Source of the DNA: Pecten maximus
Lineage: Eukaryota
Length of the DNA stretch: 64,000 nucleotides
NCBI RefSeq assembly: GCF_902652985.1
Contig: NC_047020.1
Location: forward strand, 36,022,001-36,086,000
Direction: 5' to 3'
Every line of letters begins with the position of its first letter. Position 1 is the stretch's first letter. Made by a program: the position numbers. Shown one piece after another: positions 57,201-64,000 of this stretch.

Positions 57201-60200
57201 GAATAATTGCATTTTGTATGGGACATCTGTACAATGTACGGATGTGTTATATTGCACCTTTGGAGCTGATCATGACATCATAAAATAAGGGGCATTTCCC
57301 AAAATACCAAAGAAATTTTAATACCAGACCGTAAAATTGTAATAAAGTTGATCTTAAATTAAAAACGTAACAGAAAAATCAGTTCAATATTTAACCATGC
57401 CAAAAAGGTATCAACGTCATTAGAATATCCCAGCCTTCTGACGTCATAATATTCTGACGTCATATCTTTTGTTTTGACAAGTATTCGTCAGTCTGCGAAT
57501 TATGATATTCGATATTTTAGAGGGCACACCTTAAGTGTCATAATCAACATACATTTTGTAGCTATTTGAACAAGCCTCCATTCAGTCAGAGAAACTATTC
57601 GGTAATACAAACAAATGTCAAATCTGACCGCCATTTTGAAATTTACATAACTTTAATTGGTCCACAATACTTGACAAAGTCAGAGAAAGTATCAACAGAA
57701 AAAAATGTAGGGATATTCAGTTAACAAGTATAGAACATAGGATACCATTGAATTTAAAAAAAAAACGGTTAACGCGCATGACAGGAAGTGACAACAACTG
57801 AGACAATTCTTCCGAAACTGACGATTAGTTTCAGCGTTGTAGATTAAACATTTATCAAGCTACACTTTAAAAAATAAAATTATTACGAATTCTTATATAA
57901 CGTTCACACCTATTGTATATTGGGGACCAAAACGACGAATTTTTAAGAAACAAAATTATGTTTCAAAGTCTACAGATATTGGTTAGATCAGGACAAAAAG
58001 TTTGTTAAATTATAACGAACAAGAAAAGATTATGCTTTCTAGACGGAACTTTCCACAACAGGATAGGACGTATATTATTTCATCTGTACCGGAACCGGAA
58101 GTCGATATCAGAATCAACGTGTAATTTGCTGACATAAGGCCAGACTCGTTTCAGTAGTATATGCTTATAGCAAAAAATATATCTTTACCAGTGTAAACAG
58201 ACTGATGTTCGACTATTGTCAAAAAAAAGGTATACACATTTTTCAGAAATACTTGAAAAGTACCTCGTTATCGAATTTGAAAGGAAAATAAACAGAAAAT
58301 ATCAACATAGCACCAATAGAGACAAAGAATCGTGTGATTTAAAGCAGACGAAATCATTAATGTCCACTGTAGTCTGTAGGTAACTAAAAGGGACCATTAG
58401 CTTCACATACCACTAATCTGCATTTGAATATAATATTTCAAACTGGAAATATTAAATGTTCAATAATCATCGAACACATGTTCAAGAAACAATTACAGAT
58501 TCGTCAGATCATAACTGTTCAATTTTATATACATTAATAACAAGTTGGCAATGAAATGGGCATTCGTCTGAGAAAAAACGGAATCAAAAGTATGAGGAAA
58601 TGATTTAGGTGATGAAAACAAATGCGATGATCAAATTGGACAACACTACAATCATAACAATGTTTGACAAAGCCAGCGAGTGAACATTTATGAAAAAAAT
58701 ATTATTGTCTTCCGTTCAAAATATGAGTATCATACAAATTATGTAGCTCGGAAACGCCATAATACGTCATGACGTGGACTATGACGTCACTCATGGCATG
58801 CATCATCACAGGTGCTTCTTTAACTGGAATATCTTTAATAAACGGCCAATGAGAGAGCGTTGATCTATGTCATAGCGATGTCCAATGCCAAAACTATTCA
58901 GAATTTGTTTTCAGATTGTGTTTTAGTTTAGTTTGAAAAATGAATGCCAAATCGCGTGTTTTCTTTTTGACATTGTAGGAATGACAAAAAATATAATTTA
59001 AATCTCATCATGTTCATCAAAATTGAAATGTTTTGAACACTTATGGCACCGGAAGTGACGTTTTTCATGACCAACATTCCTCATCGATTCTTCAGTAAAG
59101 CGAGTGTTTTTGGATAAGAATTTTTAATCACAGATTACAACATTTGTGTTGGAAATGTATGGATGAACATTTCGTACTTAATGTTGTGTTCGGTTCATAC
59201 CTGATAAAATCGAATAAATTACAAATAAATAACTATAAATAAACACTGTCTGATCACCACAAGTTCTGGGGGAGAGAACGAGACAGATTGCGACATTAAA
59301 ATGATGACGTCACTGCTTATTGTTTATGACGCAAAATCGTATATGAGCACAATAATGGACAGGATTAAGTGTCGCCATAATAGTTTGTCATTGTTGAACA
59401 TATTCAATTACGTCTGCACGAAAATAACGTGTGTTTCCTCCGCTTGCTTCTAACTCTCGAATGAACGACATTTCGTCGGGATGTGACGCCATTACACGAA
59501 CGATCACATTAATCGAGAAGGTTTGTGTTCGGCGTTCCTAACGCCGCCCGAAGTAGCACCTTTTATCATCGGTCAGTCCACGTGAGAACTGACCAGTAGG
59601 CTGGGTCCAAGGAATCCTTAGAGTAGGTTTCATGTTGGATGGCGCCGGTGCCGTCTCCGCGTTCGTCTTCTGTTCCGCCTTGACCCCAGATTACACCTTT
59701 CAGCTATTTTTCTAGAGCGGTCTTTTTCTCGTCCAAGACGTTTAAAACAGTTTCTCTTACGAAATTGTTTCAGTTCTCTCACGGATGTCGTAAAGAAATT
59801 CCGTACCACTTTCCTGCAGAATTTTAAATACGTCCGTTTCGGTTTGCACTTTGGCACTGGTTTACCTTCACAGCTACCCGAATTTTCCTCCGGTTTAAAG
59901 TCGCCCATATTAAATAACAGGAATTTCCTCAATTGCCTTCGCTGCTTACAGTCTTTAGCTACTATGGGTTGACCATCACAGTTAAGTCCTACATAAAATG
60001 GCTTCTTATGGTGTCGTAATCGTGAAAGACGGAACACTGTTTTGTTAAAGCTAGAGTCATTGCTCTGAATCCACTGCTGGTTAAATTTGAAACTGCATTC
60101 CATCTCTGTAAATGAATTCTGCAAATCGAAAAGAATACAAAATTAATACAAAAACACAGAAATTACGTCATTTTGAGACTAATACTTTCTAGAAAGTGAG

Positions 60201-63200: not shown

Positions 63201-64000
63201 ATATCTGGCGTAAAAGTCAGTATGTTTGAAAAGTCTAAGAAGAATGAGAATACTCACCATATCTGGACGACCGACACTTCGTACCGTTGATGGTCCCGTC
63301 AGAATTTATCTGTAACAGCATGACGTCATTAATAGCGATGAAAACTGACCCCTCGTTTACACGAGGCTCCCAATCAAAACGCTCATTCTTTAGGGCTTCA
63401 CGTGCGTCCGGGTGTCCGTTCATATACGACATACTCGTTCCGGTGGGGAAATGGGTAAGCAGGCACAAGAGTACGAAAGCCAAAGTCGTGAAGTGGTCTA
63501 CTCCGGGGATAGATTGTGTAACATGCGAGGTCATTGCTCAATACACACCAGGTGATACCGCCTTGCACACGCACGTGCATTTAACTGACTGGATGGTGAA
63601 CACGTGTTGTAAAATCTATAGTAATACATGCACATCCACTTAATGAAGATCATTTGAAATTCACGAAATCCTTTCTTCAATACGACGAATTAATTATGTA
63701 ATATCTTCTTGACGTCTACCACAAGACTGGATTTCTCCACAAAATCATAAAAAATCACAAATATTTCACCACTTTGTATATATATATATATATAGATATA
63801 TGTAAATCCCAATGAATTATAATAATTTGGTCACATGGTATCCGGTCATGAACTGTAGCACGATAGCCTATGAAATAATCCCAACGGTATTCTCTGGTTC
63901 AGTGGCCGACTCATCATTTGTAAAGTAAAATCCAACGAATGTATGTCATGCTGATATAGCATGGAAGGTACCTGTAACGAAAAGACGGTTCACTTAGTTG

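What the first reader, a model, noticed from the sequence alone, without database searches (positions are those of the whole stretch)
59630..63534. Divergent secreted FGF with remodelled receptor-binding region
Seen: the spliced 294-aa protein keeps the FGF exon structure and core motifs. After ECxF, the Glu of the usual C-x-F-x-E motif is Phe (ECSFKF), the typical YNTY segment reads FNKTVF, and this loop is longer and carries two N-glycosylation sequons (NDS, NKT). Known: that Glu and adjacent residues contact FGFR in vertebrate FGFs. Inference: a lineage-specific ligand with altered receptor specificity, or an antagonist. It mixes FGF9/16/20-like (GTINGT) and FGF8-like (ET..FLCM) features, so I cannot place it in a subfamily by eye.
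Basis: partly seen in the sequence, partly recalled or inferred. Interest (0 to 1): 0.7.

Follow-up and report, generated by a model that had tools for sequence, protein, structure and literature searches.

The report
Scallop FGF with conserved basic tail

Summary
The three-exon gene on the minus strand (63534-59630) is real. Its exon translations coincide with NCBI's 294-aa "uncharacterized protein LOC117329665 [Pecten maximus]". That record scores 62.9 bits on Pfam FGF and is predicted as a beta-trefoil.

"Glu replaced by Phe" depends on the alignment. The whole family has two extra residues after C-x-F. HMMER puts Gln146 at the Glu column, and three of the four other scallop sequences have Glu there. 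The NDS and NKT sequons occur in 5 of 5 scallop-clade sequences and not at those aligned positions elsewhere.

Subfamily is unresolved. A family profile leans to FGF9/20, the single sequence to FGF13/12, and no FGF8/17/18 chain is among the listed hits.

It is 45-56% identical to distant relatives, against 23-25% for the FGF core. It has no Pfam or PDB match.

Best reading: a secreted, matrix-tethered FGFR ligand. Altered specificity or antagonism is untested.

The parts
63258..63534 (-). Coding exon 1 (residues 1-92 plus the first base of the Ala93 codon). It covers the ATG at 63534, the signal-like segment, a poorly conserved spacer and FGF strands 1-3, including GTINGT.
   Evidence: An in-frame TGA lies 6 nt upstream of the ATG. 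The donor GTGAGT starts at 63257.
63436..63534 (-). N-terminal signal-like region (residues 1-33). The hydrophobic stretch at 16-26 is the hydropathy maximum of the whole protein.
   Evidence: Kyte-Doolittle 11-residue maximum of 2.63 at residue 16. The N-terminal segment is likewise the maximum in all 7 full-length family members examined. AlphaFold2 predicts a helix at 14-26. No dedicated signal-peptide predictor was available.
60526..63257 (-). Intron 1 (2732 nt, phase 1), running from GT to AG.
   Evidence: tblastn of P0005 hits only the three exons.
60407..60525 (-). Coding exon 2 (119 nt, the rest of Ala93 plus residues 94-132), containing the ET..FLCM...GKLYAS stretch.
   Evidence: Alone it scores Pfam FGF E=5.7e-5, 23.6 bits.
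60119..60406 (-). Intron 2 (288 nt, phase 0), from GTAAGT to AG.
59630..60118 (-). Coding exon 3 (residues 133-294 plus the stop). It holds the end of the FGF core, a linker, the C-terminal module and the polybasic tail.
   Evidence: It is 100% identical over 100% of its length to P0005.
60032..60097 (-). It contains C-S-F-K-F-N-Q-Q-W, then the low-confidence loop carrying the sequons N152-D-S (N codon 60059-60061) and N157-K-T (N codon 60044-60046), then the start of the next strand.
   Evidence: Residues 149-159 are 86% identical within the scallop clade and 0-9% identical to other clades.
59735..59836 (-). Core of the conserved C-terminal module (residues 227-260). It has two short helices and the start of a long third helix, with invariant F232, C233, V236, N239, F241 and C256. 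The wider module spans residues 215-276 (59687-59872) and includes invariant C215 and K222.
   Evidence: Alignments A1-A3. pLDDT is 92-94. Identity to distant clades is 45-56%, against 23-25% for the FGF core. Residues 227-276 carry a net charge of +14. There is no Pfam or PDB match.
59633..59686 (-). Polybasic tail (residues 277-294, net charge +10) with three overlapping R-x-[KR]-R motifs at 280, 284 and 288.
   Evidence: Such motifs occur in the tails of 4 of the 5 scallop-clade sequences, and in P0010 and P0015. They are absent from the three full-length Mytilus-clade sequences and from P0014.

Best explanation
This is an intact, expressed-looking, three-exon Pecten maximus gene (NCBI LOC117329665). 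It encodes a secreted member of the FGF family.

It belongs to a small, fast-evolving clade so far seen in scallops, in a Mytilus record and in a few unnamed records. That clade may be the bivalve descendant of FGF9/16/20.

The protein has four parts:
1. A signal-like N-terminus.
2. A beta-trefoil FGF core.
3. A scallop-specific lengthened region after strand 8 that carries two N-glycosylation sequons.
4. A cysteine-containing, strongly basic three-helix module, followed by a poly-arginine tail.

Inferred mechanism: the core engages the scallop FGFR. The basic module and tail bind heparan sulfate or matrix and keep the ligand near its source. Convertase-type sites in the tail may trim it. The glycosylated loop tunes receptor contact rather than abolishing it.

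Shown here: gene structure, family membership, predicted fold and the conservation pattern. Inferred: secretion, glycosylation, heparan sulfate tethering and FGFR signalling.
For: Gene model and identity: canonical splice sites; the exon translations coincide with NCBI record P0005.

Family membership: Pfam FGF at 58-68 bits in 5 of 5 full-length scallop-clade proteins.

Fold: in the AlphaFold2 model the core residues 71-140 have block-mean pLDDT 78-89. Foldseek against the PDB gives 222 hits at E<=1e-3. The listed ones are FGFs or FGF-derived designed trefoils, with a target-normalised TM-score of 0.82 to FGF2 in its receptor complex 1ev2.

Splicing in relatives: P0008, P0013 and P0017 come from contigs of 1.7-2.1 kb that encode the protein uninterrupted across both junctions. 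They are therefore intron-less, transcript-like sequences.

Constraint: identity within the scallop clade is 77% over the core, 86% over the loop and 83% over the module. Across clades the module is 45-56% identical, against 23-25% for the core.

The module occurs only with FGFs: all 8 hits at E<=1e-3 among 1.84 billion representatives carry it, joined to FGF sequence or as fragments.

Charge: +24 over the last 68 residues.

FGF9 leaning: the family profile scores FGF9 at 55.0 bits and FGF20 at 49.0, against 46.6 for FGF10 and FGF1.

Precedent: Drosophila Thisbe's C-terminal domain is not needed for receptor activation but limits activity (PMC2923630, passages read).
Against: - No receptor, heparin or expression data exist for this protein. 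No P. maximus RNA-seq could be checked.
- P. maximus has no acidic residue in the four positions after C-x-F. From recall, the Glu there matters for FGFR binding in FGF2.
- The loop that would face the receptor is modelled with pLDDT below 50.
- The n-region of the putative signal peptide has no basic residue, which is atypical.
- The single sequence is closest to the intracellular FGF13/12 (40.2 and 38.3 bits), not to FGF9 (31.9 bits).
- The FGF9 leaning rests on score ranking, not on a tree.
- Convertase-type motifs are absent from the Mytilus-clade relatives, so tail trimming cannot be a family-wide mechanism.
Confidence: 0.55

Rival explanations
1. The receptor-facing surface is remodelled: the canonical Glu is lost and the loop is longer and doubly glycosylated. 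The protein would then have altered FGFR specificity, or would act as a non-signalling antagonist or decoy.
For: - P. maximus has K-F-N-Q, with no acidic residue, in the four positions after C-x-F.
- The Cys140-to-GL interval is 5 residues longer than in FGF13 and 10 longer than in a consensus FGF.
- NDS (NET in P0009) and NKT are kept in 5 of 5 scallop-clade sequences, and the loop is 86% identical among them, so the novelty is under constraint.
Against: - Three of the four other scallop-clade sequences have Glu at the column HMMER equates with the canonical Glu. The loss is therefore recent and conservative (Glu to Gln), not a clade-defining remodelling.
- The two-residue insertion is shared by all 12 distinct family sequences.
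- The rest of the core is conserved within the clade at 69-88%, as expected of a working fold.
- Nothing here measures binding.
Confidence: 0.2
2. It is an intracellular or nuclear FGF-homologous-factor-like protein. The polybasic tail would then be a nuclear localisation signal rather than a matrix tether.
For: - The best single-sequence PDB hits are FGF13 (2.2e-9, 40.2 bits) and FGF12 (8e-9).
- The top Foldseek hit is FGF12b.
- The last 68 residues carry a net charge of +24.
- The n-region before the hydrophobic stretch lacks basic residues.
Against: - An N-terminal hydrophobic segment is the hydropathy maximum in 7 of 7 full-length family members. In the Mytilus-clade and P0014 sequences it follows a Lys-containing n-region.
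- The mature part has ten cysteines and conserved sequons, which fits a secretory-pathway protein.
- The family profile prefers FGF9/20 over FGF13 (55.0 against 42.7 bits).
Confidence: 0.07
3. It is a decaying or mis-annotated gene, that is a pseudogene or a chance ORF.
For: - Two of the three exons give no FGF hit on their own.
- NCBI names the product only 'uncharacterized protein'.
Against: - The reading frame is open with consensus splice sites.
- Full-length orthologues exist in three named scallop species plus two unnamed records, at 60-81% identity.
- The whole protein scores Pfam 62.9 bits.
- The fold is predicted with good confidence.
Confidence: 0.02

Closest known systems
Vertebrate FGF9/16/20 subfamily (solved FGF9 1g82, 1ihk, 5w59; FGF20 3f1r)
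   Same: - These are the best hits of the family profile, at 55.0, 54.7, 54.4 and 49.0 bits.
- They share the beta-trefoil fold.
- The stretch after C-x-F aligns with FGF9 once two inserted residues are allowed.
- The literature says the only spiralian FGFs described outside FGF8/17/18 are FGF9/16/20-like, and that they sit on long branches (PMC8224027, passages).
   Different: - There are two extra residues after C-x-F.
- The interval before strand 10 is longer and carries sequons.
- There is an N-terminal hydrophobic signal-like segment.
- There is a roughly 90-residue C-terminal extension with a conserved module.
- The single P. maximus sequence ranks FGF9 only after FGF13, FGF12 and FGF7.
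- No phylogeny was possible.
FGF homologous factors FGF11-14 (solved FGF13 3hbw and 4dck, FGF12 1q1u)
   Same: They are the top single-sequence hits (40.2-38.3 bits) and the top natural Foldseek hit, at 24-25% identity.
   Different: From recall, FHFs lack a signal sequence and act inside cells. This protein has a signal-like N-terminus, conserved sequons and ten cysteines in the mature part.
Drosophila FGF8-like ligands Thisbe and Pyramus
   Same: Both have an N-terminal signal and FGF domain followed by a C-terminal extension. That extension is dispensable for receptor activation. In Thisbe it limits activity, and multibasic furin-type motifs are present (PMC2923630, passages).
   Different: Their extensions are several hundred residues long and of low complexity. 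Here the extension is about 90 residues with a compact helical module. Sequence similarity between the two was not tested. The Atlas lead to arthropod FGF clusters scored only 0.81 and 0.79.
Molluscan and lophophorate FGFs in the literature (two Lottia gigantea genes; brachiopod and phoronid FGF8/17/18 and FGF9/16/20)
   Same: They come from the same superphylum. They are described as divergent and hard to assign (PMC3420111 and PMC8224027, passages; PMC8180254, passages).
   Different: Whether they carry the C-terminal module or the inserted residues is unknown. The trees are in figures and supplements that I could not see.
Endocrine FGF19/21/23 (recalled knowledge)
   Same: A C-terminal tail outside the trefoil confers partner (Klotho) binding. 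In FGF23 a convertase site regulates the tail.
   Different: There is no sequence relation. The endocrine tails are unstructured and those FGFs bind heparan sulfate weakly, whereas this tail is helical and very basic. This is an analogy only and was not tested.

Membership tests
FGF family (Pfam PF00167) | Sequence match to the FGF profile above the curated cut-off | tested here: met
   P0005, the NCBI record that coincides with the three exon translations, scores 62.9 bits (cut-off 24) over residues 72-199. All 5 full-length scallop-clade proteins score 58-68 bits. Exon by exon, only exon 2 hits, at 23.6 bits.
FGF family (Pfam PF00167) | Beta-trefoil fold of about twelve strands | tested here: met
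   This rests on a prediction only. AlphaFold2 places 12 strands between residues 64 and 205, with block-mean pLDDT of 78-89 for residues 71-140. Foldseek against the PDB gives 222 hits at E<=1e-3, and the listed ones are FGFs or FGF-derived trefoils, with target-normalised TM-scores up to 0.86.
FGF family (Pfam PF00167) | Three coding exons with introns at the family's usual positions | tested here: inconclusive
   Three coding exons with phase-1 and phase-0 introns are seen. Exon 2 is 119 nt. That these positions match vertebrate FGF genes, and that the usual exon 2 is shorter, is recalled. No reference gene structure was available, and paper PMC138918 is not held.
FGF family (Pfam PF00167) | Binding and activation of an FGF receptor, with heparan sulfate | not testable with these tools
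A scallop FGFR with three Ig domains is described in PMC11814522 (passages).
FGF9/16/20 subfamily | Closest similarity to FGF9/16/20 members | tested here: inconclusive
   The family profile ranks FGF9 (55.0 bits) and FGF20 (49.0) first, ahead of FGF10 and FGF1 at 46.6. The single sequence ranks FGF13 at 40.2, FGF12 at 38.3, FGF7 at 32.8 and FGF9 at 31.9. Atlas features point to FGF1-named clusters at 0.92.
FGF9/16/20 subfamily | Grouping inside the subfamily in a phylogeny with named references | not tested
   No named reference FGF sequences could be obtained. The tree contains only the 13 family sequences.
FGF8/17/18 subfamily | Closest similarity to FGF8/17/18 members | tested here: not met
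   No FGF8, 17 or 18 chain is among the 60 hits listed out of 112 or out of 136. With exon 2 alone, FGF18 is fourth of 13 at E=0.09, behind FGF7.
FGF homologous factors (FGF11-14) | No secretory signal, intracellular action | tested here: inconclusive
   An N-terminal hydrophobic segment is the hydropathy maximum in 7 of 7 full-length relatives, which argues against an FHF-like protein. No signal-peptide predictor or localisation data were available.

The most novel reading that the evidence does not exclude
The C-terminal three-Cys basic helical module is a new ligand-side domain that defines a previously unrecognised protostome FGF subfamily. Because it is held more tightly than the FGF core itself, it would be the part that carries the essential interaction. 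That interaction could be with a co-receptor or with a specific matrix or heparan sulfate partner, and it would compensate for a drifting FGFR interface. This would parallel the way Klotho-binding tails work for endocrine FGFs. The weak Atlas resemblance of the module to arthropod FGF clusters would then reflect an ancient protostome origin.
Probability: 0.15. Interest if true: 0.7.

Novelty: new variant of a known kind. Interest (0 to 1): 0.4.

Why it matters
FGFR-ERK signalling is reported as the ancestral organising cue of spiral-cleaving embryos (PMC9050690, passages; abstract of bioRxiv 10.1101/2025.05.29.656861 in the listing). [quoted passage not shown]

A bivalve ligand clade whose best-conserved part is an unannotated C-terminal module gives a concrete candidate for how these ligands are localised or presented. 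It also gives a sequence signature for finding the orthologues, which plain FGF-core searches place poorly.

The missing Glu is partly an alignment effect.

Tried and rejected
- **Exon-wise searches.** Exons 1 and 3 gave no FGF hit in Pfam. Exon 3 gave 0 PDB hits at E<=10. Exon 2 against the PDB gave 13 weak hits that do not discriminate between subfamilies.
- **C-terminal module.** Foldseek against the PDB gave 0 hits at E<=1e-3 and 1 at E=8. The Atlas search on residues 205-294 scored 0.81 and 0.79, to arthropod FGF-containing clusters. Both are below the 0.9 level and are a lead only.
- **Complex prediction, core against module.** The verdict was 'no answer' (score 0.02, mark 0.34, alignments not used). 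It is evidence for nothing.
- **Second FGF copy in the window.** None. tblastn with 7 family proteins hit only the three exons at E<0.01.
- **Neighbouring genes, for synteny.** Of 127 distinct other ORFs scanned in Pfam (48 and 80, one in both), none passed a curated cut-off. The best was 26603-26887(+), to signal peptide peptidase at 19.6 bits against 23.3. ORFs overlapping the N run were left out.
- **Literature.** PMC138918 is not held. Searches for the FGF2 receptor-contact residues and for the FGF exon structure returned nothing usable. Five searches listed no description of a bivalve FGF ligand or of this module. Supplements and figures, where the published FGF trees sit, could not be seen.
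- **Readings rejected.** The pseudogene reading and FGF8/17/18 membership are rejected, as set out under Rival explanations and Membership tests.
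Full report
**What is in the sequence**

On the minus strand an ATG at 63534, with an in-frame TGA six bases upstream, opens a three-exon coding region. Exon 1 is 63534-63258, exon 2 is 60525-60407 and exon 3 is 60118-59630. The donors are GTGAGT and GTAAGT, both acceptors are AG, and the stop is at 59632-59630. The exons translate to 92, 39 and 162 residues, and a split codon adds one Ala.

Where a whole protein was needed I used the public record that the exon 3 search returned.

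**Identity of the gene**

Exon 3 is 100% identical over its full length to NCBI "uncharacterized protein LOC117329665 [Pecten maximus]" (P0005, 294 aa). A positional check shows that exons 1, 2 and 3 coincide with residues 1-92, 94-132 and 133-294 of that record.

The named relatives found, each with its identity to P0005 over the whole protein, are:
- Ylistrum balloti (P0006, 296 aa, 81%)
- Mizuhopecten yessoensis (P0007, 295 aa, 76%; a UniRef name begins "Fibroblast growth factor")
- Mytilus californianus (P0016, 309 aa, 28%)

Several unnamed records were also found. P0008, P0013 and P0017 sit on contigs of 1.7-2.1 kb and run uninterrupted across both exon junctions. They are therefore intron-less and transcript-like, and they support the same splicing in relatives. 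This is inference, and no P. maximus RNA-seq was available.

**Family membership**

Exon by exon, only exon 2 touches Pfam FGF (E=5.7e-5, 23.6 bits against a cut-off of 24). Exons 1 and 3 do not, and exon 3 finds nothing in the PDB.

On the database proteins, PF00167 is clear in 5 of 5 (58.1-67.9 bits; P0005 scores 62.9 bits over residues 72-199). An AlphaFold2 model built from 14 sequences gives a twelve-strand core between 64 and 205, with block-mean pLDDT of 78-89 for residues 71-140. Foldseek against the PDB returns 222 hits at E<=1e-3. The listed ones are FGFs or FGF-derived designed trefoils, with a target-normalised TM-score of 0.82 to FGF2 in a receptor complex.

The N-terminal hydrophobic segment is the hydropathy maximum of the protein in all 7 full-length relatives examined. 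This fits secretion, but the scallop n-region has no basic residue and no signal-peptide predictor was available.

**The flagged region**

In all 12 distinct family sequences that cover it, the aromatic residue that follows C-x-F lies two positions further along than in FGF9 or FGF13.

- If no gap is allowed, the canonical Glu column holds Phe in the five scallop-clade sequences and P0010, Gln in four Mytilus-clade sequences, and Glu in P0011 and P0014.
- HMMER instead inserts the two residues just after C-x-F-K. It aligns Gln146 with the Glu of FGF13, and the family's E-Q-aromatic motif with that of FGF9.
- At that column Ylistrum, Mizuhopecten and P0009 have Glu, while P. maximus and its sister P0008 have Gln.

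So "Glu is Phe" is one of two possible alignments. On the other, P. maximus shows a recent, conservative Glu-to-Gln change.

What holds under both alignments is that P. maximus has no acidic residue in the four positions after C-x-F. The same is true of 5 of the 12 sequences.

The interval from Cys140 to the GL of strand 10 is 5 residues longer than in FGF13 and 10 longer than in a consensus FGF. AlphaFold2 puts the extra length in a loop at 149-159, between strands 142-148 and 160-168. HMMER puts most of the extra length later.

The two sequons are present in 5 of 5 scallop-clade sequences. The loop is 86% identical among them but only 0-9% identical to other clades. It is a constrained, scallop-specific feature.

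That this Glu matters for receptor binding in FGF2 is recalled knowledge. My literature search for it found nothing usable.

**Subfamily**

| Query | Ranking against solved structures (bits) |
|---|---|
| Single sequence P0005 | FGF13 40.2, FGF12 38.3, FGF7 32.8, FGF9 31.9 |
| Family profile | FGF9 55.0-54.4, FGF20 49.0, FGF10 and FGF1 46.6, FGF13 42.7 |
| Exon 2 alone | FGF7 18.3, FGF18 16.3 |

Atlas features point to FGF1-named clusters (0.92). No FGF8/17/18 chain appears among the 60 hits listed in either whole-protein search.

I read this as unresolved, with a mild lean to FGF9/16/20. That fits published statements that spiralians have FGF8/17/18 plus long-branch FGF9/16/20-like genes (PMC8224027, PMC3420111 and PMC8180254; passages read). 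A tree with named references could not be built, because no reference sequences could be obtained.

A tree of the 13 family sequences shows three long-branched clades:
- five sequences including the Mytilus record
- P0014 plus P0015
- the scallop sequences plus P0010

After the trefoil comes a roughly 90-residue extension. Residues 227-260 are the best-conserved part of the protein across clades, at 45-56% identity against 23-25% for the FGF core. C215, K222, F232, C233, V236, N239, F241 and C256 are invariant in 14 of 14 aligned rows.

The module is predicted with pLDDT 92-94 as two short helices and a long one. The prediction is the same in the whole protein and on its own.

It has no Pfam match, no PDB sequence match and no Foldseek match at E<=1e-3. 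A full scan of 1.84 billion representative proteins with exon 3 found only 8 hits at E<=1e-3. All carry the module next to FGF sequence or are fragments of such proteins.

Residues 227-276 have a net charge of +14. The tail at 277-294 has +10 and three R-x-[KR]-R motifs.

An Atlas search with the extension alone pointed weakly (0.81 and 0.79, below the level that means anything) to arthropod FGF clusters.

**Mechanism**

The best-supported reading is a secreted FGFR ligand. Its basic, cysteine-stabilised module and arginine tail would hold it on heparan sulfate or matrix, and its glycosylated loop would tune receptor contact.

Drosophila Thisbe gives a precedent for a C-terminal domain that is dispensable for receptor activation yet limits activity (PMC2923630, passages).

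The rivals are an altered-specificity or antagonist ligand, an intracellular FHF-like factor and a dead gene. They are weighed in their own sections of this report. None of the functional steps is shown here.

**Context and limits**

The other roughly 59 kb of the window hold minisatellites and no ORF that passes a Pfam cut-off. There is no tRNA and no second FGF copy. An N run at 47195-47330 was left alone.

Unchecked:
- the closed metagenome and viral collections
- paper supplements and figures with the published FGF trees
- any FGFR-ligand modelling

**Verdict**

The gene is already annotated but uncharacterised. It is a new variant of a known kind, and it is of moderate interest mainly because of the conserved C-terminal module.

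Noticed in passing
window 6996-7989 (also 5407-5750, 3384-4225, 10281-10707, 18902-19569, 28086-28653, 45204-45405): There are several minisatellite arrays. The largest is a 31-bp unit repeated 32 times at 90% match. It creates long spurious open frames of up to 396 aa on the minus strand, with no Pfam match.
   Followed up: partly
window 26603-26887 (+): A 95-aa open frame gives a sub-threshold match to the start of signal peptide peptidase (Peptidase_A22B, E=7.5e-4, 19.6 bits against a cut-off of 23.3). None of the other 79 plus-strand frames scanned between 22 and 47 kb matched that family, so it may be chance or a lone exon.
   Followed up: partly
window 35779-36156 (+): A 125-aa open frame has a Cys/His-rich stretch that, from recall, looks like the C-terminal part of a retrotransposon protein. 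It has no Pfam hit at E<=1e-3.
   Followed up: partly
window 47195-47330: A run of 136 N, which is an assembly gap or masked stretch. I left it untouched and left ORFs overlapping it out of the family scans.
   Followed up: no
window 61700-61760 and 62255-62300 (inside intron 1 of the FGF gene): Intron 1 contains CA/TA microsatellite-like runs and a short direct duplication of about 20 bases (read). Nothing suggests an alternative exon, and tblastn with family proteins finds nothing significant (E<0.01) in the intron.
   Followed up: partly
relatives P0008 and P0009 (unnamed records): In these two relatives the open frame continues upstream of the conserved start Met, where P. maximus has an in-frame TGA. 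The longer predicted N-termini are probably translated 5' UTR.
   Followed up: no
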